Source: an uncultured virus (IMG/VR IMGVR_UViG_3300044911_002384) (Duplodnaviria; Heunggongvirae; Uroviricota; Caudoviricetes). From it: a stretch of DNA of 64,000 nucleotides. The notes beneath the pieces were generated by a model. The model saw only the letters and a program-made list of their open reading frames with translations, had not been told where the DNA came from and searched no databases. This document shows positions 13,343-29,325 of this stretch, in pieces; the stretch's first letter is position 1; each line of letters starts with the position of its first letter. The stretch is taken from IMG/VR virus record IMGVR_UViG_3300044911_002384. The stretch is one strand, 5' to 3'. The position numbers and the translations under genes were made by a program.

Positions 13343-13372
13343 GATTACTCCAAATTGGTTGATATTTTCTGT

Positions 13373-13401
13373 ATTATACTATCAATTAAAATGGATGTCA
13401 A
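13373..13401 (-). promoter_or_regulatory. sigma70 consensus promoter
   Basis: TTGACA-N17-TATAAT. Confidence 0.8.
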
Positions 13402-13623: not shown

Positions 13624-13786
13624 TTTTTGATATAACAATCGAATTGTCTTGAACTTTAATAGTCAATTGATCGCCTTCCTTCCAACCGTTTAAGTCTAAA
13701 ATTTCTTGTGGTATTTTCATAAGTATGTTATCTGGATCCCCTTCAATTTCTTCGAATATTTCTTCTGATTTAAAAATAAGTTTCAT
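13616..13786 (-). CDS. Small AbrB/MazE-like protein (56 aa)
   Basis: Not in ORF track; MKLIFKSEEIFEEIEGDPDNILMKIPQEILDLNGWKEGDQLTIKVQDNSIVISKNG has the IP-x6-W-x-EGD pattern. Confidence 0.6.
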   Translation of the reverse strand: MKLIFKSEEIFEEIEGDPDNILMKIPQEILDLNGWKEGDQLTIKVQDNSIVISKNG

Positions 13787-13843
13787 TTTGATATAAAGTC
13801 TTTCTGTGAAGTATAAGTATAATTATATTTTTTGTCAATTAAA

Positions 13844-14092
13844 ATGAATAACATAGAGCAGCAAATTTTACAAACAATTAAAGATATGAAGATCGGTAAA
13901 GACCAATCTATCACTATGCATTCAACTCTTAAAGAAGATTTAAATTTGGACAGTTTAAGCTTTACAGAATTGTTGATATCGTTAGAAGAACAGTTTGAAA
14001 TCGAAGTGGACTTAGATGATCCAGAGTTACCAAAGCTTAATACATTAAATGATATCAATGAAGTTATCTCAAAATTAATCAGTCTTAAGTAA
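13844..14092 (+). CDS. Acyl carrier protein 1
   Basis: Small acidic protein, DLNLDSLSFTELLISLEEQFEI (DSL phosphopantetheine Ser). Confidence 0.88.
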   Translation: MNNIEQQILQTIKDMKIGKDQSITMHSTLKEDLNLDSLSFTELLISLEEQFEIEVDLDDPELPKLNTLNDINEVISKLISLK

Positions 14093-14860
14093 TTTTATCA
14101 CCCAATAAGTCGGGTCTATTTCCCACCAACGCTTTCCATAGTTGATGTTTGTAGGATCTCCGTGATGATTATTGTGCCAACTTTCCCCTAACGTAATAGG
14201 CCAAATCCAAACAATATTTACACTGTCGTCTTTAGTTTCGAGATTTCTATAACCTAGTTTCTTAATGTGAGTCACACTTGTTTGTATATTAAAAACTTGA
14301 TAGGTAATGAATGCAGGTAGTATTACAGCATATAACCAAAGATTTATATCAATTAATAAAAAAGCGGCATGACTGATTAAAAAGATTTTAGCGTAATTTT
14401 TATGAAAGAAAATACAATCTTTGTCTTTAAGCAAATCTACAATATGCTTTGTATTATATTGTCCTTCCTTTAGTTTAAACATCCACCAGATATAACTGTG
14501 CCAAAACCCATGATGAGGGCTGTGAGGATCTTTATCTTCATCACTATATCTATGATGATAACTTCTGTGTATTGTGGCCCATTGAATAGGACTACCTTGT
14601 CCTGATAAATTTCCAAACCAAAGAATTATTATCTTTACCCATCTTTTTACTTTAAAACTTTTGTGACTGAACAATCTATGATAGCCGGCGCTTACTCCAA
14701 TAATTTTAATACAAATGAAACCAATAATATAGTATGCCCACCAATAAGGAGTATAATCTACAAACAGATTATAAATGCTGTATAATCCTAAAATATGGAT
14801 AGGAATCACACCACACCAAAGATTACTAAATGATATAATGTTTTTAAAAATTTGTTTCAT
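14075..14860 (-). CDS. Membrane fatty-acid desaturase (delta9-like)
   Basis: His boxes HRLFSH, HRSYHH, HNNHH; WWEIDP; start taken at ATG 14860. Confidence 0.9.
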   Translation of the reverse strand: MKQIFKNIISFSNLWCGVIPIHILGLYSIYNLFVDYTPYWWAYYIIGFICIKIIGVSAGYHRLFSHKSFKVKRWVKIIILWFGNLSGQGSPIQWATIHRSYHHRYSDEDKDPHSPHHGFWHSYIWWMFKLKEGQYNTKHIVDLLKDKDCIFFHKNYAKIFLISHAAFLLIDINLWLYAVILPAFITYQVFNIQTSVTHIKKLGYRNLETKDDSVNIVWIWPITLGESWHNNHHGDPTNINYGKRWWEIDPTYWVIKLLKTD

Positions 14861-15399
14861 TTGTGTTTCCAGGAATTCAATAAAGAGTCGTCGCCGTGAT
14901 ATATGATATGTTGCCAACAACTATCATCATCACTATTTGGGCAAGTTTGATATTTATAGTTGTTGGTATCAAACGTCAAGTCAGAATATTTTTTAAAATC
15001 TCTTATTAGCATACTTTGCCAATGGTTGTATTGTCTGCTTACAAATACTAATTTTGAATCAGTGTTATTTTGTAACCATTTAACTTGTTCTGACACCATT
15101 AAACAGATTTGAGGACTGACAAATTTAGTAATGGGAATTCTCTTTATTTTCCACATTCTATTCAAAATTCTATAAACTCTATCTGGCCAGCAATCTCTTC
15201 GTATAATACTGCTACAATGAGTAGGGTCTCCATTTTCGTCGAACGCTATACTAAAAGCTGCTGATCTTTCAAAAAGATACTTGTTGTAATTTACTGCTAA
15301 TGGATCTGTTTTGTTATTGTGCTGATGTTGTCTTAAATTTTCGAAAAGTTTGTCTAAGTACGAGTCGGATCCCGGAGTCCAAATTTTAACACTAATCAT
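14857..15399 (-). CDS. Hypothetical protein (possibly GNAT-like)
   Basis: 180-aa ORF coupled between acpS and desaturase; fold guess is weak. Confidence 0.45.
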   Translation of the reverse strand: MISVKIWTPGSDSYLDKLFENLRQHQHNNKTDPLAVNYNKYLFERSAAFSIAFDENGDPTHCSSIIRRDCWPDRVYRILNRMWKIKRIPITKFVSPQICLMVSEQVKWLQNNTDSKLVFVSRQYNHWQSMLIRDFKKYSDLTFDTNNYKYQTCPNSDDDSCWQHIIYHGDDSLLNSWKHK

Positions 15400-15755
15400 G
15401 TTACTTCCAAAATAGCACTGGCTATGAGATAGTCTCGTTCGTGACTAAAACTAAGATGACAAGTTGGTCCTGCTAATTGTTCTTTAAACTGTACTGTTGG
15501 ACGACCTTCGTGATTGGATTTAATTTTAATATTTTTCCAAGTTACTTTATCTCGTATTCCTTTTCCAAAAGCCTTGGCAATGGCTTCTTTTCCTGCCCAT
15601 ATTTTAGCCAAATATTGAAATTTTAATTTGTGGTTTTTGAATTCTTCTAATTCTTCATCTGTGCAAATACGCATTGCAATTTTAGTTAGTCGTAGATCGT
15701 TCATCATATGAAAACGATTTAAATCTACAATATCAATTCCGTGTCCTAATATCAT
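15396..15755 (-). CDS. acpS: Holo-ACP synthase
   Basis: GHGIDIV, WAGKEAIAKAFGKGI, GRP, LSFSHE. Confidence 0.92.
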   Translation of the reverse strand: MILGHGIDIVDLNRFHMMNDLRLTKIAMRICTDEELEEFKNHKLKFQYLAKIWAGKEAIAKAFGKGIRDKVTWKNIKIKSNHEGRPTVQFKEQLAGPTCHLSFSHERDYLIASAILEVT

Positions 15756-15761
15756 ACAGTA

Positions 15762-15790
15762 ATTATACTTTTTTTAAATCTGTGTGTCAA
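15762..15790 (-). promoter_or_regulatory. sigma70 consensus promoter (acpS, possibly leaderless)
   Basis: TTGACA-N17-TATAAT ending 6 nt before the ATG. Confidence 0.75.
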
Positions 15791-15818
15791 TAGCCTGGTA
15801 AATACACCGGAGGATATT

Positions 15819-16628
15819 ATGTTTATAGGACACATTAACGACTTAGAAATCGGCCAAGCCAAATCGATTGAAGTTCTTGAAAACAAAAAAGTTTTAATCA
15901 ATGAAAATGGTGTATACAAAATAGGTAGTAATATTTGCCCTCATCAAAATAGCAGAATTATTTCCGGAACACGTACAGAACTTAGATGCCAGTACCACGG
16001 ATGGTCGTGGAATATGGATGGATCACCTAAAGATTCAGGTGCTAGTACTATGTGTAATAAGCAAAAATTACATATGAAAACAGCGTATGAATATAAAGGT
16101 CTTTTATTCGAAGAAGAATTAGATTTTTCAATGCTCGAAGAATTAAGTTTTGAAAATTTAAGATTAGAAGAATTTAGAATCGATACGGTTAATGCTGATC
16201 CAAAAATTAGTATGGATATATTTTTAGACGTCGATCATATTCCAATCGTTCATAACGGAGTCTATGATTTATTAGGAATCGAAGGTAAAGCAGATGTTAA
16301 ATGGAGTTATGCAGACTGGGGAAGTATGCAGACTGTTAGTGACGAATCGGGAAAAGTTATTGCTCGTTGGATCGCTATCTATCCTTATACTATGATAGAG
16401 TGGCAAGATAAAGCATTGTTTATAACACGGTCTTTCAATGAAACACAAATGGCAGTATGGAAATATAAAGATATAACCGAGTCAGAAGAAAACTATAGAA
16501 CTAATGAAAGTATGTGGGAAAATGCATTTTCACAAGATAAAGCTCAAGCAGAGCAAATGGTAAGATTTCCTTCTGCTAATTTAGAAGAAGCCAAAATTCA
16601 TTACAGAGAGTGGTTAAGTAAAAAATGA
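15819..16628 (+). CDS. Rieske non-heme iron oxygenase
   Basis: CPH...CQYHGW Rieske ligands; DVDHIPIVH mononuclear Fe site. Confidence 0.88.
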   Translation: MFIGHINDLEIGQAKSIEVLENKKVLINENGVYKIGSNICPHQNSRIISGTRTELRCQYHGWSWNMDGSPKDSGASTMCNKQKLHMKTAYEYKGLLFEEELDFSMLEELSFENLRLEEFRIDTVNADPKISMDIFLDVDHIPIVHNGVYDLLGIEGKADVKWSYADWGSMQTVSDESGKVIARWIAIYPYTMIEWQDKALFITRSFNETQMAVWKYKDITESEENYRTNESMWENAFSQDKAQAEQMVRFPSANLEEAKIHYREWLSKK

Positions 16629-17533
16629 AATTGTTGTATAATGATTACATGCGTAGTTCAGGAAATGGGTCAACTTGGTCAGTAGAAATAGACCCTCCTA
16701 CTAGATCAGTTAAAAGTTATTTCGAAGAAACTAAAATTGCTTGTGGGTTAATATATGAGCAAAGAACTGCTCCTTTACAACTATGTTATAGTGGAGGCCT
16801 TGATAGTGAATATGTTCTAAGTACGTTATTATACTTAGGCATACCAGTAGAAGTATTCATTATGAATACTCAATACAATTATCATGAAACCAAATATGCA
16901 TTTAAATTTTGTGAATCAAAGAACATTACTCCTACCATAGTTGATCTAGATTATGATAAATTTGTAGAATCTGGTAAACTAATAGAAATAGCAGAATCCA
17001 TGTGTTGCGCACAGTGGCAAATACCTGCTAATATGTGGCTAGTGGAACAATTAACAGGTACAGTTATAATTGGTAATGATCCTCCACATATGAAGTTAAA
17101 CAAAGAAGATAATCTTTGGTATCTCGATGAAGAGGAAGTTATTCATAGTCAATTTAATTTTTGGAGAAATCGAGATATACTTGGAACACCTTTTCTGTTA
17201 AGCTATACTCCTGAATTAATGTTAAGTTTTTTATTAGATCCGACTATGGAAAAATTAGCTAATCATGGATTTCCAGGTAAATTAGGAACTAACAGTACTA
17301 AAGTTCATGTGTTTAATAGAGACAGCAATTTTAATTTAGAACAACGTGTTAAACAACACGGATATGAAAATGCTGAAAAAAGTTTGATTTTTAATCATCC
17401 TGACATTCAAACTGTGATTAGTTGGAAAGATCGCTGGGGCGGAACTAGCGACCATCAGTATCATACTGTAGTAGAAAAACTCAGTTCGGGAAAATCTTCT
17501 AAAGCTTTTTCAGTATGTCCTTCAAATTCTTAA
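16625..17533 (+). CDS. PP-loop ATP pyrophosphatase (asparagine-synthetase-like)
   Basis: LCYSGGLDSE. Confidence 0.65.
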   Translation: MKLLYNDYMRSSGNGSTWSVEIDPPTRSVKSYFEETKIACGLIYEQRTAPLQLCYSGGLDSEYVLSTLLYLGIPVEVFIMNTQYNYHETKYAFKFCESKNITPTIVDLDYDKFVESGKLIEIAESMCCAQWQIPANMWLVEQLTGTVIIGNDPPHMKLNKEDNLWYLDEEEVIHSQFNFWRNRDILGTPFLLSYTPELMLSFLLDPTMEKLANHGFPGKLGTNSTKVHVFNRDSNFNLEQRVKQHGYENAEKSLIFNHPDIQTVISWKDRWGGTSDHQYHTVVEKLSSGKSSKAFSVCPSNS

Positions 17534-17536
17534 TAT

Positions 17537-17995
17537 ATGAATCAATTAACTAACCAAGAAGTTCTTTCAATATTGCCTCATCGTTATCCATTTCTGATGA
17601 TTGATAAAGTTATCGAATACTCCGACACAGATCTAATAGCAGTGAAAAATTTCACAATCAATGAGCCATATGTACAAGGACATTTTCCAAACAATCATAT
17701 AATGCCAGGTGTAATGATGGTAGAATCTATGGCACAAGCCAGCACAATTTTAGGGTTCAAGTACATAGAAAAGAATGCAACTATGGAACAAATTTTGTCA
17801 CAATTTTCTGGAGGATTTTTGTTTGTAGCTGCTGATGAAGTGAGATTTAAACGAGTTGTGCATCCTGGAGATCAATTAAAAATATTTTCTAAATTGACTA
17901 GATGTGCTAGAACTTTATTTGAATTTGAAACTAGAATAGAAGTTGATAGGATTATAGTTGCTTCGGCCAAGTTAAAAGCCACTGCTGGTATTTAA
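17537..17995 (+). CDS. fabZ: 3-hydroxyacyl-ACP dehydratase
   Basis: LPHRYPFLMID, GHFP, MPGVMMVESMAQ, RFKRVVHPGD. Confidence 0.95.
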   Translation: MNQLTNQEVLSILPHRYPFLMIDKVIEYSDTDLIAVKNFTINEPYVQGHFPNNHIMPGVMMVESMAQASTILGFKYIEKNATMEQILSQFSGGFLFVAADEVRFKRVVHPGDQLKIFSKLTRCARTLFEFETRIEVDRIIVASAKLKATAGI

Positions 17996-18021
17996 TATTA
18001 AATAGCTATATAGGAGGACGT

Positions 18022-18390
18022 ATGGATTTAGAAAATTGGACACCATTGACTACGCAAGAAATAGAAAAGAAATTTATTGGAATGATTAATGACTATCTAA
18101 AATTAAATTTAGAATATCCTGTAGATCCAAATCTTTCTTTAAAAGATTTGAGATTAGTTGGGGATACGAAAGTTATTGAACAATTACAAGATGTTGATGA
18201 AGAATCATTAGAAATTATAAAAAAGAATTTTGAAATCGATAGCATAGATATATTGGAATTAGTAATTCAGATCGAAGAAGAATTTGGCGTAGTAATTGAC
18301 GATAAAGATGTGGCCACTCTACTTAGATGGGAAGATCTTATTGGTTATATAGCAGATAGTCAAGACCCTAAAAAAATGAAACAAAAATGA
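18022..18390 (+). CDS. Acyl carrier protein 2 (with insertion)
   Basis: IDSIDILELVIQIEEEFGVVIDD. Confidence 0.8.
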   Translation: MDLENWTPLTTQEIEKKFIGMINDYLKLNLEYPVDPNLSLKDLRLVGDTKVIEQLQDVDEESLEIIKKNFEIDSIDILELVIQIEEEFGVVIDDKDVATLLRWEDLIGYIADSQDPKKMKQK

Positions 18391-19565
18391 AACCTGTTTA
18401 TATAGTTGATTATGCAGTAATAGATACAATAGGATTTGATATAGAATCGAACTATAAAAATCTTACTCTATTAGCTAAAGGTCCTCAGACCTGCACTAGA
18501 TACGATGTAACAGAGTATCCTCACATACTCTGTACTAAAGGTTATGAAATTTCTCAGTATGATGGACGTAATATTTTTTCAAAGTTGCATAACGATTTAT
18601 CTGATCAGTTATTATCGAAAGCTACTATTCCATCAGATTCTGCCGTAATAGTGAGTGCGTTTGCTCATTCAGGCAACGAAGTAAGAAATGATTTTGATAA
18701 CTCATTCCGAGGCGGAATGAGCCGATTTAGTCCTACAAAGCTTTTTCTAAATAATAATGATTTAATGAGTGCTAACATAGCGAAAAAATTAAAATTAGAA
18801 GGATTCAGCTCTGGGGTAATGGCAGCGTGTAGTTCTAGTATGTTCAACTTACACTATGCTTTCACTTGCATACAATCAGGAGTGATTTCGTCCGCTGTAG
18901 TTGGAGCTATAGAAACTCCAATACATCCTTCTGTGCAATATTACTGGCAATGTACTAGTGCAATTTCTACTCGAGATGGAGGAATCTGTAAACCATTTGA
19001 TAAGAACAGAGATGGGTTTGTTCAAGCCGAGGGAGGAACATTATGGTTAATATGCGATGAAGAAACATTGAAAAAATATAATTTAACTCCTAAAGCTAAA
19101 ATTCTTTCTATAGTGCTGTCTTCTAAATGCTATGATACTGCTACTATGACTGCTCACGATAAAACAGGAAAGAGTCAAATTGATACAATTAATAAAGCAC
19201 TAACTATTGCAAATAAAAAATCGGAAGATATAGCTTTTTTTAATGCACATGCTACTAGTACTTTGATAGGAGACGATATTGAATTAGACGTTTTTCAGCA
19301 AAAATTTAAAGACGTTGATATTCCGTGTGTTAGTTTTAAAGGTTATATCGGCCACACTATGAGTGCAAGTGGTATGGTTGAATCTGCTTACGGATTAGAA
19401 GCATTAAAAAATCAGTATCTGCATCCAAACTACGATTTAACAGATCCAATAAGCGACGATCCTAGATTAATTACAAAAGCGATTCCTATCAAAGGAGATA
19501 CATTTATTAAAGCTTCTTTTGGGTTTGGGGGCAGAACTGCTATAGCAGTATTTCAAACAATTTAG
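18387..19565 (+). CDS. Beta-ketoacyl-ACP synthase (FabB/FabF-like)
   Basis: AACSSS, PFDKNRDGFV, NAHATST, KGYIGHT, SFGFGG; C-H-H triad intact. Confidence 0.92.
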   Translation: MKPVYIVDYAVIDTIGFDIESNYKNLTLLAKGPQTCTRYDVTEYPHILCTKGYEISQYDGRNIFSKLHNDLSDQLLSKATIPSDSAVIVSAFAHSGNEVRNDFDNSFRGGMSRFSPTKLFLNNNDLMSANIAKKLKLEGFSSGVMAACSSSMFNLHYAFTCIQSGVISSAVVGAIETPIHPSVQYYWQCTSAISTRDGGICKPFDKNRDGFVQAEGGTLWLICDEETLKKYNLTPKAKILSIVLSSKCYDTATMTAHDKTGKSQIDTINKALTIANKKSEDIAFFNAHATSTLIGDDIELDVFQQKFKDVDIPCVSFKGYIGHTMSASGMVESAYGLEALKNQYLHPNYDLTDPISDDPRLITKAIPIKGDTFIKASFGFGGRTAIAVFQTI

Positions 19566-19575
19566 GTTTCAATAT

Positions 19576-20409
19576 ATGTACAATCATACTTCAGATACAA
19601 ATACTGACCCGAGACATTTGTTGCGGTTGAAAATGGAAAAAATCGATGGATCAAGTTTTATGACAGACGGACCTCCGGCTGGTTACGACTTACCTACCGA
19701 ATACATTGAAAAAATGAAAGTTATCAGTGAAAAGTATAAACCCATACAATGGCTACCGTTGGATATACCTAAAATTGATATAGGCGATCCTAAAGAATTT
19801 TTAGAAATTTACGATAGTCAACGTTATCCTGTTGTAAGAATTAAACCTGATGTAGCAGAACCATGGAGTAAGGAAGATCATCCTTTTAAGCAAGATAGTA
19901 GCTGGAATAAAGCAGCATTTAATGGTCTTCATCTATATCAAAATCCTATGATTGATCTTAAGCTAAGTACCTTTTACGGAAAAGTTTATCTTGGAGATAT
20001 TCCTGTTTTCAAAAGGATTATTGAACAAGTGCATGATTATATTCCTCATCACCCTTTTATCAGTATATTCATCTGGGAAAGTTTATCGACTATTATTCCT
20101 CATAGGGATGCCGCATCATATTGGAAATGTCCTACAGATTTTAGATCTATGTTATATGATGAAAATGATAAACCTACTTTGTATGTAGCAGAAGACGGAT
20201 CAGATGAACCAATCTATATTGACCTTCCTGAGGATACTAATACTTTTTGTTGGAGCAATGGAAAAATGGTTCATGGATCTGATTATCATGGAAAAAGAAA
20301 ATTACTACTAATTATGACAGGAATACAGCATACAAGAAAATCTGTAGAGTTGTTTGATCGCAGTATTGCAAAGTATAAAGACAAATTAAATTATAAATTA
20401 GAAATGTAA
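19576..20409 (+). CDS. Putative Fe(II)/2OG-type (cupin) oxygenase
   Basis: PHRD...VHG putative facial triad; paralog of next ORF. Confidence 0.5.
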   Translation: MYNHTSDTNTDPRHLLRLKMEKIDGSSFMTDGPPAGYDLPTEYIEKMKVISEKYKPIQWLPLDIPKIDIGDPKEFLEIYDSQRYPVVRIKPDVAEPWSKEDHPFKQDSSWNKAAFNGLHLYQNPMIDLKLSTFYGKVYLGDIPVFKRIIEQVHDYIPHHPFISIFIWESLSTIIPHRDAASYWKCPTDFRSMLYDENDKPTLYVAEDGSDEPIYIDLPEDTNTFCWSNGKMVHGSDYHGKRKLLLIMTGIQHTRKSVELFDRSIAKYKDKLNYKLEM

Positions 20410-21278
20410 TGGATCTAAGTATCTTACAAAAAAAAATTGAAGAGGCGAAAGTCTCTCAATTTGATTATTCAAAATTAAACACTAGTTACACAAAACTAGG
20501 TCCTTCCTTGCATAAAAATGCAAGTTTTATTCAGGCTTCATGGTCACCCGAGATACCTATTTCTGAATCTTATCTAAAAAAAATAAAGTTATTAGAAGAA
20601 AAATATGAATCTATTTTTTGGTTACCTTTAGATATACCTAAAATTCAAATAAGCGATTGGAAACTTTTTTTAGAAATTTGGGAAAGAGAAAAAATACCTA
20701 TTGTTAAAAAAAACGATCCAGATTTTATTCAAGAATTTTACGGAATGCATATTGCATCTAACCCATTAATTGACTTTTACTGTCATGATTTGTACGATTC
20801 AAAAGGTAAGATGATAGAAAATCAAATTTCGGAAAAAAGCGGATTTACTCAAGGAAGAGACAATATAGGTTTATACACTAAAAAACTTTATAAAGATAGA
20901 TTTTTTAATTCTTTAGTTAGTAATATTATGGCAACTTTTCCTATTAGTGTTATTAATACTATATCTATATTCGAAGTTATGAATGATGTAGCACCTCATA
21001 GGGAGGAAACTTGGTACTGGAAATGTCCTACTGAATTTAGAATAAATCTTTATGATGAAAATAAAACCCCTGTATTTTACGTAACGGATATCGAAAGCGG
21101 TGAAACGAGATATATAGATCTACCTCAAGATACAAACAGTTTTTGTTGGAGTAATGGAACTAAATTATACGGGGGTGATTATCACGGAAAAAAGAATTTT
21201 CAAATAGTTGTTAACGCGATATGGGATACAGCAAAGTTAGATAATTTGCTAAGTACAAGTTTAAAAAAATACGGATAA
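20409..21278 (+). CDS. Paralog of preceding oxygenase-like protein
   Basis: Shared WLPLDIPKI, YWKCPT, YIDLPxDTNxFCWSNG, DYHGK; HRE instead of HRD. Confidence 0.5.
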   Translation: MDLSILQKKIEEAKVSQFDYSKLNTSYTKLGPSLHKNASFIQASWSPEIPISESYLKKIKLLEEKYESIFWLPLDIPKIQISDWKLFLEIWEREKIPIVKKNDPDFIQEFYGMHIASNPLIDFYCHDLYDSKGKMIENQISEKSGFTQGRDNIGLYTKKLYKDRFFNSLVSNIMATFPISVINTISIFEVMNDVAPHREETWYWKCPTEFRINLYDENKTPVFYVTDIESGETRYIDLPQDTNSFCWSNGTKLYGGDYHGKKNFQIVVNAIWDTAKLDNLLSTSLKKYG

Positions 21279-21279
21279 A

Positions 21280-21819
21280 ATGGAATACTGGAAATATTTA
21301 GAATTAGATAATGTAGAAAAGATTCAAGAAAAAACTTTAACGTTTATTCGAGAAAAAACAGATTTTATGGATAAATCTAAATATAAAGGTCCATATATTA
21401 ATTTGCCCTTTTTCGATTACAATAAGGATGTTCCAGAGCTTCAAGAAAGTTTTTTAAATTATGGGTTGTATGTCACTGGTATTCATATATTTTTAATGTG
21501 GAATAACACCGATTGTATTCCCCATAAAGATTATACAGATGCCATTGGTAGAGTGAATATCCCTATATTAAATTGTCAAGGATCTAAAACCATATTTTAT
21601 AAAAATTTAAAATCTAAAAGATTAATGTTGCCTACTAGGTCTCCATTTTATATGACTATAAACAAAGATTACGAAGAAGTTGGCGGAGTTGAAATAGATC
21701 GTCCTACTATTGTCAGAATAAGTGAAGGACATACCGTAGTAATGAATGATAAAAGTTTTCCTAGAATTACACTTACTGTTTCAACAATTCCTGATGTAGG
21801 ATTATTATTGGACGATTAA
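21280..21819 (+). CDS. Putative Fe(II)/2OG-type oxygenase
   Basis: PHKD, NIPILNC, GHTV, RITL. Confidence 0.55.
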   Translation: MEYWKYLELDNVEKIQEKTLTFIREKTDFMDKSKYKGPYINLPFFDYNKDVPELQESFLNYGLYVTGIHIFLMWNNTDCIPHKDYTDAIGRVNIPILNCQGSKTIFYKNLKSKRLMLPTRSPFYMTINKDYEEVGGVEIDRPTIVRISEGHTVVMNDKSFPRITLTVSTIPDVGLLLDD

Positions 21820-22139
21820 ATTTCGCTATCTTCCAAAGCAAAATCAATTCCGTATTGATTCGTTATAATTTCAAAGTAATTCCAAATAAATTCGTTCTCC
21901 TCCTTAGAGTAAAAATTATTAAATTCTTCTTTACTTTCAAAAATTACAGAACTATATAATATTGTTCCTTGAGGTTGTTCGACAAATTTAGTTTCCTTTC
22001 TTATAAATCCAGGAACTATATACAATGCATTTAGATAAGGTTCATACATCGAATGTGAACGTATATCTCGTATGAAATTCAATAACCGTTCTTTATCTGA
22101 TGCATCTCTTGACTTTAAAATTGCAGTTCTGCTAAACAT
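21816..22139 (-). CDS. Hypothetical protein
   Basis: 107-aa ORF with AGGA SD. Confidence 0.5.
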   Translation of the reverse strand: MFSRTAILKSRDASDKERLLNFIRDIRSHSMYEPYLNALYIVPGFIRKETKFVEQPQGTILYSSVIFESKEEFNNFYSKEENEFIWNYFEIITNQYGIDFALEDSEI

Positions 22140-22148
22140 AATTTTCCT

Positions 22149-22745
22149 TTAATCTTCAATTTTAAACGCTGTTCGGAATCCAATTCTTATAGGCCACGAC
22201 CTATTTAATATCATATTTTTTTGATAATCATATTTTGGAATAGAATTCGACTCTAATACATGTTCAGTTATATAGTGATATTTAGATAAATTATAATCTT
22301 TTTTGAAATTTTTAGAAAATCTAAGAAGTCTATCTATTCCTCCAATCGAACGTACACCCAAGTGTTCTGCATTATAAGCAAAATGCCATCTATTTAATTT
22401 TCTTTTATTTTCCATTTCGTCGAAAATAATTTGATCAATGTCTTTAAACATGTCGATCATTTCAGTATTATTAATTAAAAATCCTCTATTTTCGAATAAA
22501 TGGTGTGCCCAACACCATGCCGGTGCCGTAGAAAATTCTTTCAAGATTATTGCCCCTACTAGATTATTTTTGTTAAATATTCCAACATTAAAAAATAACT
22601 TATCGTTTAACATTGTTTCTGTAGACTGTATTAAGTAGTCTTGATACTGATGATCGGTATATCCGTTAAATACTTGAGGGTTTTTAACAAATAAATTTTT
22701 TAAAATACTTTGGTCTTCTTTTTGTAAAATTTTAATATTAAACAT
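22149..22745 (-). CDS. Hypothetical protein (possibly GNAT-like)
   Basis: VGIFNKNNLVGAI strand pattern; weak. Confidence 0.45.
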   Translation of the reverse strand: MFNIKILQKEDQSILKNLFVKNPQVFNGYTDHQYQDYLIQSTETMLNDKLFFNVGIFNKNNLVGAIILKEFSTAPAWCWAHHLFENRGFLINNTEMIDMFKDIDQIIFDEMENKRKLNRWHFAYNAEHLGVRSIGGIDRLLRFSKNFKKDYNLSKYHYITEHVLESNSIPKYDYQKNMILNRSWPIRIGFRTAFKIED

Positions 22746-22796
22746 GATAACTTACTTATCATGTTCAAAAAAAAAATAATTTAATTAGGAAAATGT

Positions 22797-23129
22797 ATGT
22801 ATATAAGAAGTTATAAGTTAGTATGTCAAGGTCAACCTAAAATGGATCGATTTCGAATAGTCACTACACAGGGGTTAAAATTCAATCAATTAATGAAAAA
22901 TTACAATGTTAAATTTCAAGGGTTTGTTGAAGCACGTGATGATCACTATGATAACGAACGTTGGGAAATTACCACTGTATGGGAATCAAAGTCAGATTGG
23001 GAAAAAGCTATGCAACATCCTATGCGAAAAATGTTCTGGTCTCGATTCGAAATGGAGGCGTTAAAGCATGATATTGATTTGACTATAACAGACAGTCTCG
23101 GTGAAACAATTAAACCTTTAGAAATTTAA
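22797..23129 (+). CDS. ABM-like dimeric alpha/beta barrel protein
   Basis: ITTVWESKSDWEKAMQHP pattern. Confidence 0.5.
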   Translation: MYIRSYKLVCQGQPKMDRFRIVTTQGLKFNQLMKNYNVKFQGFVEARDDHYDNERWEITTVWESKSDWEKAMQHPMRKMFWSRFEMEALKHDIDLTITDSLGETIKPLEI

Positions 23130-23139
23130 GGAATATGAT

Positions 23140-23535
23140 ATGGAAAAATTTATAAAAATACTGACAGTAACACAAACTGCTCCTGATATCGATGGCGAAA
23201 TTAATGTGATAAAAACTTTAGAGACATCTGTTGCATGGCACCAATTATATTACTGTCATCCTCATCCATCTAATTATATCGACAATGTTACAGTTAATTT
23301 AAGTGAAGATAAATCGTATGCCGAGTTTCACGCTGATCATAATTCTTTGGAAACATATAACGACTGGTTTAAAACATTTGGAGAAATTTCAGAAGAGTTA
23401 TATAAAGAATGTATCGATGAGTTAGAAACTGAAGGACTAATATTCGAAAGATTCTTTTCTGATGTAGATAATGCTCAATTAGAAGTGTTAGGCAATCATG
23501 CTCAACCTTTGAAAAATTTTATAAGCAAAATTTAA
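23140..23535 (+). CDS. Hypothetical acidic protein
   Basis: 131-aa ORF with AAGGA SD. Confidence 0.5.
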   Translation: MEKFIKILTVTQTAPDIDGEINVIKTLETSVAWHQLYYCHPHPSNYIDNVTVNLSEDKSYAEFHADHNSLETYNDWFKTFGEISEELYKECIDELETEGLIFERFFSDVDNAQLEVLGNHAQPLKNFISKI

Positions 23536-23538
23536 TAG

Positions 23539-24837
23539 ATGTTAAGAATTATCGATGTTCTTCAAGTTATTGTAAAATATAATCTTGAGGAACATCTATT
23601 TCAAAATTCAAATTTCAAATTACTTTCAATCGCAAAACTTTCTTTTAAGAATCTATTCGGCATAACAACTCCGCACGGAACTTTTGAATATCGATTACGT
23701 TGTGCGCTAGAGGAACTAGGACCAGTTTTTATCAAATTTGGACAAATGTTATCATCTAGACCTGATTTAATTCCTGCAAGTATTGTTAAAGAATTAAAAT
23801 TTCTTAGAGAGTCAGTAAAGCCTTTTTCTGAACATGATGTAGAAAAAATAATAGAATTAGAATTAAAAAACTCTACAGAAAACATATTTAAAAAGTTTGA
23901 TAAATCTCCTATTGCTGCGGGTAGTGTAGCGCAAGTTCATTATGCTGAACTACACACTGGTGAGTTAGTTGCGGTTAAAATATTAAGGCCTAAAATAGAA
24001 TGTATTATTAAAAAAGACATAAAGTTATTTAGAAATATTTTACAATTAATTTTTTTGTATAATAAAAATTTAAAAAAAATTAAGATAGAAAAAATTTTAG
24101 ATGAGTTATCAAATAGTTTAATGTTAGAACTAGATTTATTGATAGAATCTGATCATATGAAAAAGTTTGCATCTAATATGAAACATGTTTCATATGTATG
24201 TGTTCCTAAAGTATATGACAAATATAGTACAAAAACTATTTTAGTGATGGAAAGAATGTTTGGAATTCCTATTGATCAAAAACAACAACTTATTGATCAA
24301 GGTGTTGATGTTAGGATAGTAGTTCAACAAGGTGTCGAAGTAATGATGTTACAACTATTCCGAGACGGATTTTTTCATGCAGATCAACATCCCGGAAACT
24401 TATGGATTAAACCTGATGGATCTCGAATTTATTTAGATTTTGGAATAGTTGGGTCTATTACAGAGGCAGATAGAAAATCATTATTGCAAATTCTTTTCTT
24501 TTTATATTCTAAAAATAATAAAAAAACGATTGAAAAATTAATAGATGCCGGATGGTTAAACAAAAATCAAAACTTAGACCAATTAGAAGTCGATTTAATT
24601 GATATAGCACAGCTATTTGTTAATCGAAAACAAAAAGATTTTTCAATTGGTAATGTATTAAATAAATTTTTCAATTTAGTAGAAAATTATCAAGGCAATG
24701 TGCCTTATCAATTTACATTATTGGTAAAAACAATTTTAGTAACTGAAGGTATAGTAAAGCAACTAACACCTGATCTAAATATTCAAAGTATAGCAGAGCC
24801 GGTTCTTTTAAAGTTTTTTACTAAATCTTTTACTTAA
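23539..24837 (+). CDS. ubiB: UbiB/ABC1 atypical kinase
   Basis: LGPVFIKFGQMLSSRPD, AAGSVAQVH, VAVK, FFHADQHPGN, LDFG. Confidence 0.9.
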   Translation: MLRIIDVLQVIVKYNLEEHLFQNSNFKLLSIAKLSFKNLFGITTPHGTFEYRLRCALEELGPVFIKFGQMLSSRPDLIPASIVKELKFLRESVKPFSEHDVEKIIELELKNSTENIFKKFDKSPIAAGSVAQVHYAELHTGELVAVKILRPKIECIIKKDIKLFRNILQLIFLYNKNLKKIKIEKILDELSNSLMLELDLLIESDHMKKFASNMKHVSYVCVPKVYDKYSTKTILVMERMFGIPIDQKQQLIDQGVDVRIVVQQGVEVMMLQLFRDGFFHADQHPGNLWIKPDGSRIYLDFGIVGSITEADRKSLLQILFFLYSKNNKKTIEKLIDAGWLNKNQNLDQLEVDLIDIAQLFVNRKQKDFSIGNVLNKFFNLVENYQGNVPYQFTLLVKTILVTEGIVKQLTPDLNIQSIAEPVLLKFFTKSFT

Positions 24838-25587
24838 GAGAAATCCTATATAACCCTCTATATCTATTTCCCACCAACGATGTTGAAGTATCAATCGTCC
24901 AGGATGAGCATGATGATTATTGTGCCATCCGAACCCCATACCTAACCAACCTAACCATAAATTATTCGTAGTTGCATCGTCTGTAGAAAAATTTCTATAA
25001 CCTGATCTATGACACCAATAGTTAACTGCACCTAGTCTAAAAAAATCCACACAGTAGGCCAAACAGTACATCATGAAGTACACCGGATCAATCAAAACAA
25101 GTGTAAAACAAAATGTAAAAATTATTTTATAATGATGTCTATGAAAGAAAAGATAAAACGGGTCACGCAACATCTGTACAGCTAATTTTTTAGCATACTT
25201 GTCTTGTAAATATTCTTGTTCGTTATTTCCCTGAGGAAATGTCCAAGCATAGAATACGTAGAACCAACTGTTATACATTGGACTATGAGGATCGTTAACT
25301 TTATCTGCTCTAAGATGATGAGCTTTATGCTGTATGACCCAAAATGTCACTGGACCAATAGCGCCTAAAGTAGATAAAAATCCTAATAGCCATTTTACAG
25401 GTTTATAGGTTTCGAACTGACCATGAGCAAAATATCTATGTGCTGCTACACCATTGCCTACTACACCAATGACAAACCAAATTACTAAGAAACTGATCCA
25501 ATGATTAGGTAGTTCCCATATAGCAATTAGTCCCCATATATGAAAAGGTAGAAATACTACCCAAAAGTTAAATCCATATTTTTTCAT
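24808..25587 (-). CDS. Membrane fatty-acid desaturase
   Basis: HRYFAH, HKAHH, HNNHH. Confidence 0.9.
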   Translation of the reverse strand: MKKYGFNFWVVFLPFHIWGLIAIWELPNHWISFLVIWFVIGVVGNGVAAHRYFAHGQFETYKPVKWLLGFLSTLGAIGPVTFWVIQHKAHHLRADKVNDPHSPMYNSWFYVFYAWTFPQGNNEQEYLQDKYAKKLAVQMLRDPFYLFFHRHHYKIIFTFCFTLVLIDPVYFMMYCLAYCVDFFRLGAVNYWCHRSGYRNFSTDDATTNNLWLGWLGMGFGWHNNHHAHPGRLILQHRWWEIDIEGYIGFLLSKRFSKKL

Positions 25588-26342
25588 TGTTTAATCAATC
25601 TAATAATGTAAGCAGGTATATCAAACTCCCACCAACGTTCTTGATTGTTCCAAGCATATGGTTTAGCGTGATGTGTATTATGCCACCCTTCTCCTAATGT
25701 GATAAGATTGGCAATCCAACTATTACGGCTTTGATCTTTGACGTCCGGATAAGGTCTATAACCATGTCTATGTGCTATAACAATAATAGCACTAGTGCTG
25801 TGTAAGCAAAGACAAGCAGGTATAGCAAACACATATATTATCATTAATGGATCATAAGCAAATAAAATTGATATCCAAATTAGAATTACCAGCAAATATT
25901 TTTTGTGTAGTTCTCGTTGAAAGACATTTTCACGCATATCACGAACTAGTTTTAAATCTAATCTAGGCATATTCCATATACCGAACCATGCTCGAAAATT
26001 TCCCAGTATATAAGGACTATGAGGATCTCCAGGACGTTCTGCTGATCTATGATGCTGTCTATGTACAGCTACCCAAGCTAATGGACTACCTACCACAGTA
26101 ATAACACCTATAAGACTAAACAGTTGCTCCCAGAATCGATGTGTTTTAAAACTACGATGACTGAGTAGTCTATGGTAACCAATGTTAATACCAAGTACAC
26201 CTATGATCCAATAGGTTACTAAGGACACAAATAATAAACTATATTCAGCAATGTAGATAGCATATATTATACCTATTGTAGCAATTACATGATTAATTAC
26301 TTGTAGTGTTCTTACAGTTTGATTATGTGTCATTTTTATCAT
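25584..26342 (-). CDS. Membrane fatty-acid desaturase
   Basis: HRLLSH, HRQHH, GEGWHNTHH. Confidence 0.9.
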   Translation of the reverse strand: MIKMTHNQTVRTLQVINHVIATIGIIYAIYIAEYSLLFVSLVTYWIIGVLGINIGYHRLLSHRSFKTHRFWEQLFSLIGVITVVGSPLAWVAVHRQHHRSAERPGDPHSPYILGNFRAWFGIWNMPRLDLKLVRDMRENVFQRELHKKYLLVILIWISILFAYDPLMIIYVFAIPACLCLHSTSAIIVIAHRHGYRPYPDVKDQSRNSWIANLITLGEGWHNTHHAKPYAWNNQERWWEFDIPAYIIRLIKQ

Positions 26343-26892: not shown

Positions 26893-26920
26893 ATCTGTAC
26901 TTATCGAAATTAAAAAGGAA

Positions 26921-27125: not shown

Positions 27126-27130
27126 ACTAT

Positions 27131-27159: not shown

Positions 27160-27161
27160 AA

Positions 27162-29324: not shown

Positions 29325-29325
29325 T

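What the first reader, a model, noticed from the sequence alone, without database searches (positions are those of the whole stretch)
13844..26342. Phage-encoded ACP-dependent lipid/polyketide-like biosynthetic gene cluster
Seen: within ~12.5 kb lie two ACPs, AcpS, FabZ, a ketosynthase with an intact Cys-His-His triad, three His-box desaturases, a Rieske oxygenase, a PP-loop adenylating enzyme, three 2OG/cupin-like oxygenases, an ABM-like protein, two possible GNAT-like proteins and a UbiB kinase. Strand switches are frequent, unlike the flanking minus-strand core. No FabD, FabG or FabI lies in the window. Known: single desaturases occur in cyanophages; ACP plus multiple desaturases is the logic of bacterial polyyne/polyene clusters. 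Inference: the phage extends a host acyl chain on its own ACPs and oxidatively tailors it into a specialised lipid or acyl modification (membrane remodelling, virion acylation or signalling). I know of no described phage pathway of this completeness.
Basis: partly seen in the sequence, partly recalled or inferred. Interest (0 to 1): 0.85.

Follow-up and report, generated by a model that had tools for sequence, protein, structure and literature searches.

The report
Phage-owned acyl-carrier lipid-tailoring gene module
A complete 364-kb lake-water jumbo phage carries about twenty genes for its own acyl carrier proteins, their activating enzyme, a chain-extending enzyme, a dehydratase, desaturases, oxygenases and an acyl-transferase-like protein; related phages keep the same set, so it probably makes a special fatty-acyl compound whose identity is unknown.

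Summary
Window 13,844-26,342 (plus u189 to 26,892) encodes two ACPs, AcpS, FabZ, a Cys-His-His ketosynthase, three stearoyl-CoA-desaturase-type enzymes, a Rieske oxygenase, a PP-loop enzyme, UbiB, 2OG-oxygenase-like proteins, a GNAT-fold protein and ABM-like proteins.

It is not a chimera. The record is a closed T4-like jumbo myovirus of 364,554 bp. Depth is even in three other lake metagenome runs, and the cluster sits between the same phage genes in relatives.

Of 16 distinct relatives with 5 kb or more on both sides of the ketosynthase:
- ACP2, KS and GNAT occur in 16.
- FabZ, the ABM-like protein and a 2OG oxygenase occur in 15.
- AcpS and the PP-loop enzyme occur in 14.

The ketosynthase clade was found only on phage or metagenome contigs. 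Cellular matches are 30% identical or less. The genome lacks FabD, FabG/FabI, FAAL, thioesterase and ferredoxin.

Best reading (0.55): a private carrier-bound pathway that borrows host enzymes and makes an unsaturated, oxygenated acyl product. It is not a polyyne-cluster member.

Print lists only fabF plus a desaturase, or ACP islands, in freshwater phages.

The parts
13844..14092 (+). ACP1, small acyl carrier protein (ORF opens at TTG 13832; ATG at 13844)
   Evidence: PP-binding 28.8 bits. Best NCBIfam ACP models score 45 bits, below cut-off. Ser in a DSL-type motif. Present in 11 of 16 relatives and never without Des1.
14075..14860 (-). Des1, membrane desaturase of the stearoyl-CoA-desaturase type, convergent with ACP1
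   Evidence: FA_desaturase 59.7 bits. Aligns to human and mouse SCD1 (4zyo, 4ymk), E 6e-20, over residues 14-255 with the His boxes in register. Present in 12 of 16 relatives.
14857..15399 (-). u180, conserved unknown protein in the AcpS operon
   Evidence: No Pfam, NCBIfam or PDB-profile match. Weak ESM lead to GNAT and FeeM clusters. Present in 14 of 16 relatives.
15396..15755 (-). AcpS, holo-ACP synthase (phosphopantetheinyl transferase)
   Evidence: ACPS 71.7 bits. TIGR00516 86 bits over its cut-off of 59.8. 4-nt overlap with u180. A 12/12 sigma-70-like promoter lies at 15790-15762. Present in 14 of 16 relatives.
15819..16628 (+). Short Rieske non-haem iron oxygenase, first gene of the eight-gene + strand operon
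   Evidence: Rieske 45.7 bits. PDB matches to ring-hydroxylating and SxtT-type oxygenases, E 1.6e-4. Both metal motifs read. Present in 7 of 16 relatives.
16625..17533 (+). PP-loop (SGGxDS) ATP-pyrophosphatase-like protein, 302 aa
   Evidence: Profile against PDB: NAD synthetase E 0.0017, LarE and N-type ATP-PPase weaker. Sub-threshold QueC, Asn_synthase or tRNA_Me_trans hits in 6 of 6 members. 542 unnamed environmental clusters. Present in 14 of 16 relatives.
17537..17995 (+). FabZ, 3-hydroxyacyl-ACP dehydratase
   Evidence: FabA domain 85.6 bits. NF000582 146.4 bits over its cut-off of 113. Present in 15 of 16 relatives.
18022..18390 (+). ACP2, carrier protein with a roughly 45-aa N-terminal extension, translationally coupled to KS
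   Evidence: PP-binding 24.5 bits at residues 69-109. Ser motif. 4-nt overlap with KS. Present in 16 of 16 relatives.
18387..19565 (+). KS, FabF-like condensing enzyme of a phage-only clade
   Evidence: Both KS domains. C148, H288, H323, K318 and GFGGR are invariant. FabF model scores 158 bits against a cut-off of 494. About 100 clusters at 52-98% identity, then a drop to 35% or less. Forms its own clade, support 99.
19576..20409 (+). u277, 2OG/Fe(II)-oxygenase-fold protein
   Evidence: AF2 pLDDT 83. Foldseek ALKBH2 and PHD2, E 4e-5. VIA best hit proline 3-hydroxylase, Z 10.1, rmsd 3.5, 161 aa. H176 and D/E178 are conserved.
20409..21278 (+). u289, paralog of u277 in which Tyr replaces the distal His
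   Evidence: 35% identity to u277. Alignment A2. u277 or u289 is present in 15 of 16 relatives.
21280..21819 (+). u179, probable small 2OG oxygenase (motif only)
   Evidence: Invariant H82, D84, H151 and R162 in 8 sequences. No significant profile match. Present in 9 of 16 relatives.
21816..22139 (-). u107, small protein, distant paralog of u110
   Evidence: hhalign against u110: probability 69.6%, E 4e-5, 104 columns. Present in 12 of 16 relatives.
22149..22745 (-). u198, GNAT-fold acyltransferase-like protein
   Evidence: AF2 pLDDT 82. Foldseek gives at least 500 hits with E<1e-3, top E 4e-9. VIA Z 13.6, rmsd 2.6, 145 aa. Present in 16 of 16 relatives.
22797..23129 (+). u110, ABM-like small protein
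   Evidence: ABM PF03992 is sub-threshold in 4 of 7 members, E 6e-4 to 0.07. Present in 15 of 16 relatives. A zero-difference RNA-library contig covers 22843-23039.
23140..23535 (+). u131, unknown small protein
   Evidence: No family match. Present in 3 of 16 relatives by tblastn. An RNA-library contig covers 23364-23514.
23539..24837 (+). UbiB/ABC1 atypical kinase-like protein
   Evidence: ABC1 241.6 bits. TIGR01982 414.7 bits, below its cut-off of 487.55. Present in 9 of 16 relatives.
24808..25587 (-). Des2, SCD-type desaturase
   Evidence: FA_desaturase 51.5 bits. 29% identity to Des1. Present in 10 of 16 relatives.
25584..26342 (-). Des3, SCD-type desaturase
   Evidence: FA_desaturase 66 bits. 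Present in 9 of 16 relatives.
26323..26892 (-). u189, unknown protein heading the Des3-Des2 transcription unit
   Evidence: No family match. Syntenic in 5 of 16 relatives.

Best explanation
The region is a phage-owned, carrier-bound acyl-chain pathway kept apart from the host's fatty-acid synthase. Proposed order of steps: (1) Phage AcpS puts the phosphopantetheine arm on the two phage ACPs. (2) Host FabD supplies malonyl units. (3) The phage ketosynthase, whose gene overlaps ACP2, condenses an acyl primer with malonyl-ACP2. (4) Host FabG reduces the product, phage FabZ dehydrates it, and host FabI may or may not complete the cycle. (5) The stearoyl-CoA-desaturase-type membrane enzymes add further unsaturation, with Des1 paired to ACP1 and Des2/Des3 acting elsewhere. 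(6) The 2OG, Rieske and ABM-like proteins oxidise the chain. (7) The GNAT-fold protein takes the acyl group off the carrier onto an amine, and the PP-loop enzyme adenylates or amidates a carboxylate. The product would be a specialised unsaturated, oxygenated (N-)acyl compound made in the infected cell, not bulk phospholipid. Shown here: gene identities, intact catalytic motifs, phage origin, conservation as one unit, and the missing steps. Inferred: every reaction, the order of steps, the substrates and the product.
For: Phage origin: terminase, portal, gp23-type capsid, sheath, baseplate, gp43 polymerase, UvsX and gp32 on the same 364,554-bp record. The record's ends overlap, and CheckV gives 100%. 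Continuity: three non-source lake runs cover 30 of 30 bins at about 4-8x, and zero-difference contigs bridge 12300-14941, 13341-15804, 23209-26141 and 26282-27275. Operon build: Rieske to u179 are eight + strand genes with gaps of 26 nt or less and three overlaps; AcpS, u180 and Des1 are likewise tight. Unit conservation: 28 distinct ketosynthases, of which 16 have 5 kb or more on both sides. Counts of 16: ACP2 16, GNAT 16, FabZ 15, u110 15, u277/u289 15, AcpS 14, u180 14, PP-loop 14, any desaturase 15. ACP1 never occurs without Des1 (11 loci with both, 1 with Des1 alone, 4 with neither). Private rather than borrowed parts: KS is 30% identical or less to 110 cellular matches from 185,579 species genomes, scores 158 against the FabF cut-off of 494, and forms its own clade with support 99. 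Both ACPs fall below every NCBIfam ACP cut-off, and a dedicated AcpS is present. A second phage KS clade (354 aa, triad intact) sits behind a hexapeptide acyltransferase and ahead of 3-7 tandem desaturases. So ketosynthase plus acyltransferase plus many desaturases recurs independently. Weak hint of expression: zero-difference contigs over u110 and u131 in an RNA library.
Against: No product, substrate or activity is known. FabZ is an orthodox FabZ, above its equivalog cut-off, and the desaturases are ordinary SCD-type enzymes like published single phage helper genes. A plain membrane-remodelling role is therefore not excluded. Rieske (7 of 16), UbiB (9 of 16), Des2/Des3 (10 and 9 of 16) and u179 (9 of 16) are variable, so they may not belong to one pathway. 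The GNAT lacks an obvious Q/RxxGxG/A cofactor motif, and its best structural matches are small-molecule and protein N-acetyltransferases, not known acyl-ACP-using enzymes. No ferredoxin, rubredoxin, ketoreductase, enoyl reductase, malonyl transferase, thioesterase or acyl-AMP ligase is encoded, so much depends on host enzymes accepting very divergent ACPs. The RNA-library signal may be DNA carry-over. Long branches in the KS tree make the join of the two phage clades unsafe.
Confidence: 0.55

Rival explanations
1. Bulk membrane remodelling. The genes are ordinary helper genes that raise flux through the host's type II fatty-acid synthase (extra ACP, KS, FabZ) and desaturate existing membrane lipids, to keep the envelope fluid or growing during a long jumbo-phage infection in cold lake water. 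The unknown neighbours are unrelated cargo.
For: FabZ scores as a true FabZ. The desaturases align end to end with stearoyl-CoA desaturase. Six desaturases are spread over the genome, two of them beside haem oxygenase and bilin reductase and not in the cluster. Single phage desaturases are published and shown active (PMC5776448, title and abstract seen in the listing, one passage). fabF plus a desaturase are listed for freshwater pelagimyophages (PMC7029224, passage). fabG, fabF and fabZ reads are reported in viromes (PMC10653327, passages). A third phage KS clade occurs as a lone gene in T4-like contexts.
Against: A flux booster would be expected to resemble host genes. Here KS and both ACPs are far from any cellular homologue, and a private AcpS is kept in 14 of 16 relatives. 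The GNAT, ABM-like, 2OG-oxygenase and PP-loop genes are as conserved as KS itself and are interleaved in the same operons, which is hard to square with unrelated cargo. No glycerolipid acyltransferase is encoded.
Confidence: 0.27
2. Macromolecule acylation. The carrier-bound chain is transferred by the GNAT-fold protein onto a protein (virion or host), or onto an envelope sugar or lipid A-type acceptor. The module would then lipidate a structure, not make a free metabolite.
For: Among the 50 best structural matches of the GNAT are many protein N-terminal acetyltransferases such as Naa10, Naa50, Naa60 and RimI, at Z 11.7-12.8. The second phage KS clade is coupled to a hexapeptide (LpxA/LpxD-like fold) acyltransferase. 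The window also holds a KDO8P/DAHP-synthase-family gene and a glycosyltransferase. A 2026 paper suggests envelope modulation for ACP islands of flavobacterial jumbophages (PMC13573597, passage).
Against: No acceptor is identified. GNAT fold matches within 1-2 Z units do not tell substrates apart. The cluster is not next to structural genes in this genome.
Confidence: 0.12
3. Artefact: a chimeric assembly joining a phage contig to a cellular biosynthetic cluster, or a decaying, non-functional island.
For: G+C dips to 0.29-0.33 across 14-26 kb against 0.35-0.39 in the flanks, and strand switches differ from the mostly minus-strand genome.
Against: The identical cluster with the same flanks lies on a second IMG/VR contig of 165.8 kb and on three metagenome contigs. 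19 lake-water runs hold 92% or more of its words. Depth is even across both borders in three runs. Divergent relatives keep it between the same phage genes, MPE298-u229-IF1 on one side and MPE199 on the other. All ORFs are intact with catalytic residues. No cellular genome holds a close KS.
Confidence: 0.02

Closest known systems
Bacterial alkyne/polyyne clusters (jamABC core; cay, pgn, cepacin, collimonin clusters)
   Same: A designated ACP works with a set of three membrane desaturases on a thio-templated fatty chain (PMC9828172 abstract; PMC8406139 passages). ACP1-Des1 pairing and three clustered desaturases echo this.
   Different: The defining fatty acyl-AMP ligase, thioesterase and rubredoxin are absent from the whole phage genome. 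The phage instead has KS, FabZ, AcpS, GNAT, PP-loop and 2OG oxygenases. Whether JamB-type and these desaturases are close kin was not tested.
Phage desaturase helper genes and the fabF + stearoyl-CoA desaturase genes of freshwater pelagimyophages (group PMP-D)
   Same: Aquatic T4-like phages carry SCD-type desaturases, and in freshwater also fabF (PMC5776448, listing and one passage; PMC7029224, passage).
   Different: Those reports list one or two genes. Neither text contains 'acyl carrier'. Here there are about 20 linked genes with private carriers and a PPTase, in a Rak2/GAP32-like jumbo phage whose capsid protein is 68-73% identical to that group.
ACP-containing 'host-interface island' of freshwater flavobacterial jumbophages
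   Same: Duplicated ACPs beside a metal-dependent phosphohydrolase in a conserved island of freshwater jumbo phages, with a proposed role in membrane modulation (PMC13573597, abstract and passages). The present cluster is also flanked by metallophosphoesterases.
   Different: That text has no 'ketoacyl', 'desaturase', 'fatty acid' or 'FabZ'. Homology between the two islands was not tested, and I did not open its supplementary tables.
Bacterial type II fatty-acid synthase (AcpP, AcpS, FabF, FabZ)
   Same: Same folds, domains and catalytic residues. FabZ and AcpS pass their NCBIfam cut-offs.
   Different: KS and the ACPs fail theirs. FabD, FabH, FabG and FabI are missing. KS forms a separate phage clade.

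Membership tests
Beta-ketoacyl-ACP synthase II (FabF) | Two thiolase-fold KS domains with a Cys-His-His triad | tested here: met
   PF00109 74 bits and PF02801 70.4 bits. C148, H288 and H323 are invariant in 26 and in 6 sequences.
Beta-ketoacyl-ACP synthase II (FabF) | Score above the curated equivalog cut-off, and grouping with cellular FabF | tested here: not met
   TIGR03150 158.1 bits against a cut-off of 493.75. Separate clade from all 37 cellular KS rows. 30% identity or less to cellular hits.
FabZ dehydratase | Equivalog model above cut-off | tested here: met
   NF000582 146.4 bits against a cut-off of 113. TIGR01750 140.3 is below its cut-off of 155.15.
Holo-ACP synthase (AcpS) | Equivalog-domain model above cut-off | tested here: met
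   TIGR00516 86 bits against 59.8; PF01648 71.7 against 25.
Acyl carrier protein | PP-binding domain with the attachment serine | tested here: met
   28.8 and 24.5 bits against 20.8. Ser present in both. Every NCBIfam ACP equivalog is below its cut-off.
Acyl carrier protein | Actually phosphopantetheinylated by the phage AcpS | not testable with these tools
   Needs mass spectrometry of co-expressed proteins.
Bacterial alkyne/polyyne biosynthetic cluster | Fatty acyl-AMP ligase (JamA type) | tested here: not met
   PF00501 has no match in the 364-kb genome; the control rings in 12 of 14 genomes.
Bacterial alkyne/polyyne biosynthetic cluster | Dedicated ACP plus three desaturases | tested here: met
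   ACP1 and Des1-3 in the cluster. Kinship of these desaturases to JamB was not tested.
Bacterial alkyne/polyyne biosynthetic cluster | Thioesterase and rubredoxin | tested here: not met
   PF00975 and PF00301 have no match in the genome. Other thioesterase folds were not searched, apart from weak 4HBT hits that lie on FabZ itself.
Stearoyl-CoA-type (delta-9 family) membrane desaturase | Three His boxes, and full-length alignment to SCD1 | tested here: met
   Des1 against 4zyo, E 6e-20, residues 14-255 against 31-283. His boxes in Des1-3. Regiospecificity was not tested.
2OG/Fe(II) oxygenase superfamily | Double-stranded beta-helix fold | tested here: met
   u277 model: all 50 best of 48,161 chains are 2OG oxygenases, top Z 10.1. 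Foldseek E 4e-5.
2OG/Fe(II) oxygenase superfamily | H-x-D/E...H iron triad | tested here: inconclusive
   u277/u289: H176 is invariant and D/E178 kept, but the distal His is Tyr in the u289 branch. u179: H82, D84, H151 and R162 are invariant, but there is no fold or profile support.
GNAT acyltransferase superfamily | GNAT fold | tested here: met
   u198: Z 13.6, rmsd 2.6, 145 aa to 3f0a; 756 of 999 chains at Z>=8.
GNAT acyltransferase superfamily | Q/RxxGxG/A acyl-CoA pyrophosphate-binding motif (motif recalled, not from a call) | tested here: inconclusive
   No such conserved motif is visible in the 9-sequence alignment. The donor could be CoA- or ACP-bound.
Rieske non-haem iron oxygenase | Rieske domain plus a mononuclear iron site | tested here: met
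   PF00355 45.7 bits against 20.3. Both motifs read (motif patterns recalled). No phage ferredoxin or reductase partner.
UbiB (ABC1 atypical kinase) | ABC1 domain, and the UbiB equivalog cut-off | tested here: inconclusive
   PF03109 241.6 bits is met. TIGR01982 414.7 is below its cut-off of 487.55.
ABM (antibiotic biosynthesis monooxygenase) domain | Pfam model above the gathering score | tested here: not met
   Best 20.3 bits against 23.1; 4 of 7 members have sub-threshold hits. Fold not modelled.

The most novel reading that the evidence does not exclude
Lake jumbo phages, and in reduced forms several other phage lineages, run a private thio-templated lipid pathway. A phage-only ketosynthase loads and extends a chain on phage ACPs, a set of desaturases and oxygenases turns it into a polyunsaturated or conjugated, oxygenated acyl group, and a GNAT releases it as an acyl amide. 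That compound would act as a toxin, signal or envelope modifier during infection. This would be the first specialised-metabolite pathway of lytic phages built on their own carrier-protein system.
Probability: 0.2. Interest if true: 0.9.

Novelty: new variant of a known kind. Interest (0 to 1): 0.72.

Why it matters
Phage helper genes are usually single host-like enzymes that patch a bottleneck. Here a lytic-type jumbo phage keeps a roughly 13-kb set of linked genes. It has its own carrier proteins, its own carrier-activating enzyme and a condensing enzyme that I found in no cellular genome, and at least 28 diverged relatives in lake metagenomes keep the same unit. If the reading is right, phages own carrier-based lipid chemistry that is separate from host metabolism. 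That would add a new class to the few phage-borne biosynthetic clusters in print, which one survey found to be mostly bacteriocins of temperate phages (10.1101/2020.10.01.322628, passages). It would also offer compact, orthogonal ACP, PPTase, KS and desaturase parts for study. The module is cheap to test, because all parts are small, soluble or standard membrane enzymes.

Tried and rejected
- Deposited phage genomes. Megablast of the cluster against 50,697 records found nothing. tblastn of KS, AcpS and FabZ hit only records at 43% identity or less that look like bacterial DNA filed as phage. u277 and the PP-loop protein gave no match. Des1 matched 3 records at 32% or less.
- Cyanophage idea. 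The genome has no psbA, and the capsid points to Rak2/GAP32-like jumbo phages of Proteobacteria. The host was not determined.
- PDB profile searches. Nothing usable came back for u277, u110, u180, u107 or u179.
- hhalign tests. u180 against the GNAT family and u179 against the u277 family showed no relation.
- ESM Atlas. It held no structural model for u277 or u180, so it gave feature leads only.
- PP-loop family search. It gave 542 clusters, all unnamed, so no function was gained.
- P-free aminolipid idea (OlsB/OlsC-like). It was attractive because of the PstS and porin genes. However, the GNAT's best fold matches are acetyltransferases, not OlsB or FeeM types. That absence from a top-50 list does not exclude the idea, so it stays as a lead.
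- RNA run X20. It covers only 16 of 30 bins, mostly with contigs of relatives, so uncovered parts say nothing.
- Promoter scan. It found 66 sites against 80.6 expected, so no enrichment overall. Only the three 12/12 matches are noted.
- Literature searches that found no description of such a module. Subscription journals are not covered.
- Earlier scan notes. Look-ups by place and by sequence were empty.
- Script errors.
- Unused tools.

Full report
**What is there.**

Between 13.8 and 26.9 kb the window holds twenty tightly packed ORFs in five transcription blocks:
- ACP1 (+), convergent with Des1.
- AcpS-u180-Des1 (-).
- Rieske, PP-loop, FabZ, ACP2, KS, u277, u289, u179 (+). These eight genes have gaps of 26 nt or less and three start/stop overlaps.
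- u198-u107 (-), then u110-u131-UbiB (+).
- u189-Des3-Des2 (-).

Pfam gave hits for 14 of the 27 ORFs scanned between 12.6 and 28.5 kb. Those inside the finding are two PP-binding proteins, ACPS, Rieske, FabA/FabZ, both ketosynthase domains, ABC1 and three FA_desaturases.

NCBIfam sorts these parts into two groups:
- AcpS (86 bits, cut-off 59.8) and FabZ (146.4, cut-off 113) pass their curated cut-offs.
- The ketosynthase (158 bits, FabF cut-off 494) and both ACPs (45 bits or less, cut-offs 66-71) fall far below theirs.

Catalytic residues are in place:
- the carrier serines in both ACPs;
- Cys148/His288/His323 in KS;
- three His boxes in each desaturase;
- both metal motifs of the Rieske protein;
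- SGGxDS in the 302-aa protein.

Des1 aligns over almost its whole length with mammalian stearoyl-CoA desaturase (E 6e-20).

**The unnamed genes.**

I aligned each with its homologues from related loci.

| Gene | Result |
|---|---|
| u277 | AF2 model (pLDDT 83) has the double-stranded beta-helix of 2OG/Fe(II) oxygenases. All 50 best of 48,161 PDB representatives are such enzymes (best Z 10.1, rmsd 3.5, 161 aa). Foldseek E 4e-5. |
| u289 | 35%-identical paralog of u277, with Tyr in place of the distal His. |
| u179 | Invariant H-x-D...H...R pattern, but no fold or profile support. |
| u198 | AF2 model (pLDDT 82) is a GNAT fold (Z 13.6, rmsd 2.6, 145 aa; at least 500 Foldseek hits below 1e-3). 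|
| u110 | Sub-threshold ABM hits in 4 of 7 members. Distant paralog of u107 (hhalign 69.6%, E 4e-5). |
| PP-loop protein | Weak matches only, to NAD synthetase, LarE and QueC-type N-termini. |
| u180, u131, u189 | Still unknown. |

**It is a phage and not a chimera.**

- *The record.* The window is bases 215,753-279,752 of a 364,554-bp IMG/VR record rated 100% complete, and the record's two ends overlap.
- *Hallmark genes.* PHROGs on 89 ORFs of 280 aa or more outside the window found large terminase, portal, gp23-type major head protein, sheath, tube, baseplate wedge and hub, gp43-type polymerase, UvsX, gp32, clamp loader, primase, helicases and RNR.
- *Relatives.* The capsid protein is 68-73% identical to those of the Rak2/GAP32/CBB/PA5oct group of jumbo myoviruses. 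There is no psbA.
- *Independent assemblies.* The same cluster with the same flanks lies on a second IMG/VR contig and on three metagenome contigs at about 100% identity. Nineteen lake-water metagenome runs hold 92% or more of its words.
- *Read depth.* In three runs not flagged as the source, all 30 bins are covered at about 4-8x, apart from the tRNA bin. Zero-difference contigs cross both borders.
- *Composition.* G+C is lower in the cluster (0.29-0.33) than beside it (0.35-0.39). This fits a flexible island and does not indicate a join.

**Conservation.**

The ketosynthase has about 100 database clusters at 52-98% identity, then a sharp drop to 35% or less.

Scans of IMG/VR and of metagenome contigs gave 43 loci of this clade, counting the window. 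I dropped those whose KS match was shorter than 380 aa and merged those more than 97% identical in KS DNA. That left 28 distinct ketosynthases, of which 16 have 5 kb or more on both sides.

| Gene | Loci of 16 |
|---|---|
| ACP2 | 16 |
| GNAT (u198) | 16 |
| FabZ | 15 |
| u110 | 15 |
| u277 or u289 | 15 |
| Any desaturase (0-6 per locus) | 15 |
| AcpS | 14 |
| u180 | 14 |
| PP-loop | 14 |
| u107 | 12 |
| Des1 | 12 |
| ACP1 | 11 |
| Des2 | 10 |
| Des3 | 9 |
| UbiB | 9 |
| u179 | 9 |
| Radical-SAM gene | 8 |
| Rieske | 7 |
| SDR | 3 |

ACP1 never occurs without Des1. Four loci (two or three distinct) put two to four desaturases directly ahead of ACP2-KS, and tblastn found no FabZ, u110 or PP-loop gene in them.

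**Wider pattern.**

A second phage KS clade (about 354 aa, 26-27% identical in alignment A7, triad intact) sits behind a hexapeptide-repeat acyltransferase. Three to seven tandem desaturases follow it, in phage contexts with PhoH, clamp loader and NT5C.

A third clade is a lone KS, with an SDR fragment and a radical-SAM gene, in T4-like contigs.

The tree had 100 rows. I left out every second of the 74 cellular rows to save time. In it:
- the module clade (30 rows, support 99) and the KS-plus-desaturase clade (8 rows, support 99) each hold together;
- the two join each other (support 95), apart from all 37 cellular rows;
- the program warns of long-branch effects.

The scan of one genome per 185,579 species found 110 KS relatives, none above 30% identity. 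That scan uses short peptide patterns, so absence from cells is not proven.

**What is missing.**

The whole genome lacks the following. The same searches ring in 7-14 of the 14 control genomes.

| Missing function | Pfam model |
|---|---|
| FabD | PF00698 |
| FabG/FabI-type SDRs | PF13561, PF00106 |
| MDR enoyl reductases | PF00107 |
| PlsC acyltransferases | PF01553 |
| Acyl-AMP ligases | PF00501 |
| Type II thioesterase | PF00975 |
| Ferredoxin | PF00111 |
| Rubredoxin | PF00301 |

Only the two ACPs carry PP-binding domains. The pathway must therefore borrow malonyl loading, keto reduction, possibly enoyl reduction, and electrons from the host.

**How it most likely works (0.55).**

The full sequence of steps is in the Best explanation section. 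In short, a private carrier system (AcpS, ACP1, ACP2) holds an acyl chain that the phage KS extends, FabZ dehydrates and SCD-type desaturases unsaturate. The 2OG, Rieske and ABM-like proteins then oxidise it, and the GNAT off-loads it. The PP-loop enzyme activates a carboxylate.

Four points favour a specialised product over simple flux boosting:
- KS and the ACPs are very far from cellular ones.
- A dedicated PPTase is kept.
- GNAT, ABM-like, 2OG and PP-loop genes are as conserved as KS and sit in the same operons.
- The trio of KS, an acyltransferase and many desaturases recurs independently.

Points against:
- FabZ and the desaturases are orthodox.
- Several members are variable.
- No chemistry is shown.

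The rivals are bulk membrane remodelling (0.27), acylation of a protein or envelope acceptor (0.12) and artefact (0.02).

**Comparison with what is known.**

[quoted passage not shown] Three of these five are absent here. The phage module therefore works like them at most in part and is not a member.
- *Phage lipid genes in print.* Print has active cyanophage desaturases (PMC5776448, listing and one passage; no 'ACP' in the text). It has one sentence listing fabF and a stearoyl-CoA desaturase in freshwater pelagimyophages (PMC7029224). It has virome reads of fabG, fabF and fabZ (PMC10653327). It also has an island with duplicated ACPs in flavobacterial jumbophages (PMC13573597; supplements not opened).
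- *Phage biosynthetic clusters.* A survey found them rare and mostly bacteriocins (10.1101/2020.10.01.322628, passages).
- *Searches.* My eight searches found no description of a phage ACP, AcpS, KS, FabZ, GNAT and oxygenase module. Subscription journals are not covered.
- *Earlier notes of this scan.* They describe smaller ACP-KS-desaturase(-AcpS) cassettes in other uncultured phages and an ACP-KS-mini-GNAT-FabZ set in N4-like phages. They are unchecked AI notes. They led me to the pelagimyophage paper, and they agree with the recurring pattern I saw myself.

**Verdict.**

This is a real, intact and conserved phage module. It is the largest version so far of a recurring phage theme that combines a ketosynthase, a carrier and desaturases. 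The product is unknown, so I class it as a new variant of a known kind.

Noticed in passing
window 13402-13638 (-) and 13616-13786 (-): A phage translation initiation factor IF-1 homologue (TIGR00008 84.8 bits, cut-off 61.15) overlaps a 56-aa AbrB/MazE-like protein. The pair sits directly beside the lipid cluster in the window and in many relatives.
   Followed up: partly
window 28456-36212 (-): A block of 24 tRNA genes, two of them tRNA-Met and one tRNA-Ile(tat), interleaved with small ORFs. The depth spike in bin 28328-28928 of all runs comes from tRNA cross-matching.
   Followed up: no
window 52968-55711 (-): One operon joins a ferredoxin-dependent bilin reductase, two more FA_desaturases and a haem oxygenase, in a phage without psbA. 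A published pelagiphage-like scaffold shows a similar trio (PMC11480375 passage).
   Followed up: partly
G000:C1:197861-198460 (outside the window): A sixth FA_desaturase gene (68.2 bits) lies far from the cluster.
   Followed up: no
window 42575-45013 (-): A phosphate-selective porin (Porin_O_P, 178 bits) lies next to a PstS-like phosphate-binding protein. These are phosphate-stress helper genes in a phage with a very large genome.
   Followed up: no
window 45096-48693 (-): Two paralogous radical-SAM proteins (one with a B12-binding domain) sit beside a GATase/BPL_N protein. Related radical-SAM genes sit inside the lipid cluster in 8 of 16 relatives, between KS and u277.
   Followed up: partly
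window 56065-58457, 10077-10664, 7029-7700 (-): The phage encodes a full-length DnaK (857 bits), an Hsp20, ClpP and a Bax1-I family membrane protein. A Lon-like ATP-dependent protease lies elsewhere in the genome.
   Followed up: no
window 978-2386 (-): A KDO8P/DAHP-synthase-family gene (229.6 bits) is followed by a 6-pyruvoyl-tetrahydropterin-synthase (QueD-like) gene, with a glycosyltransferase at 287-985.
   Followed up: no
window 15790-15762, 13401-13373, 27836-27808 (- strand): Three perfect 12/12 TTGACA-17-TATAAT promoter matches, one directly upstream of AcpS. Promoter-like sites are not enriched overall, 66 found against 80.6 expected.
   Followed up: no
G000:C1:1-110 and the last ~110 bases: The record starts with a short inverted repeat of its own following sequence, and both ends share a direct overlap. 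This is probably an assembly artefact at the closure point of a circularly permuted genome, although IMG/VR labels the record 'linear'.
   Followed up: partly
L148, L156, L158, L160, L165 (metagenome loci): Another phage lineage carries a Cpn10-like gene, a hexapeptide acyltransferase, a short 354-aa ketosynthase and 3-7 tandem desaturases, with no ACP found by tblastn.
   Followed up: partly
L025, L026, L027, L029, L032 and 9 of 16 relatives: A roughly 390-aa protein with no family match follows the GNAT gene in many relatives but has no homologue in this genome. UbiB occupies that position here.
   Followed up: partly
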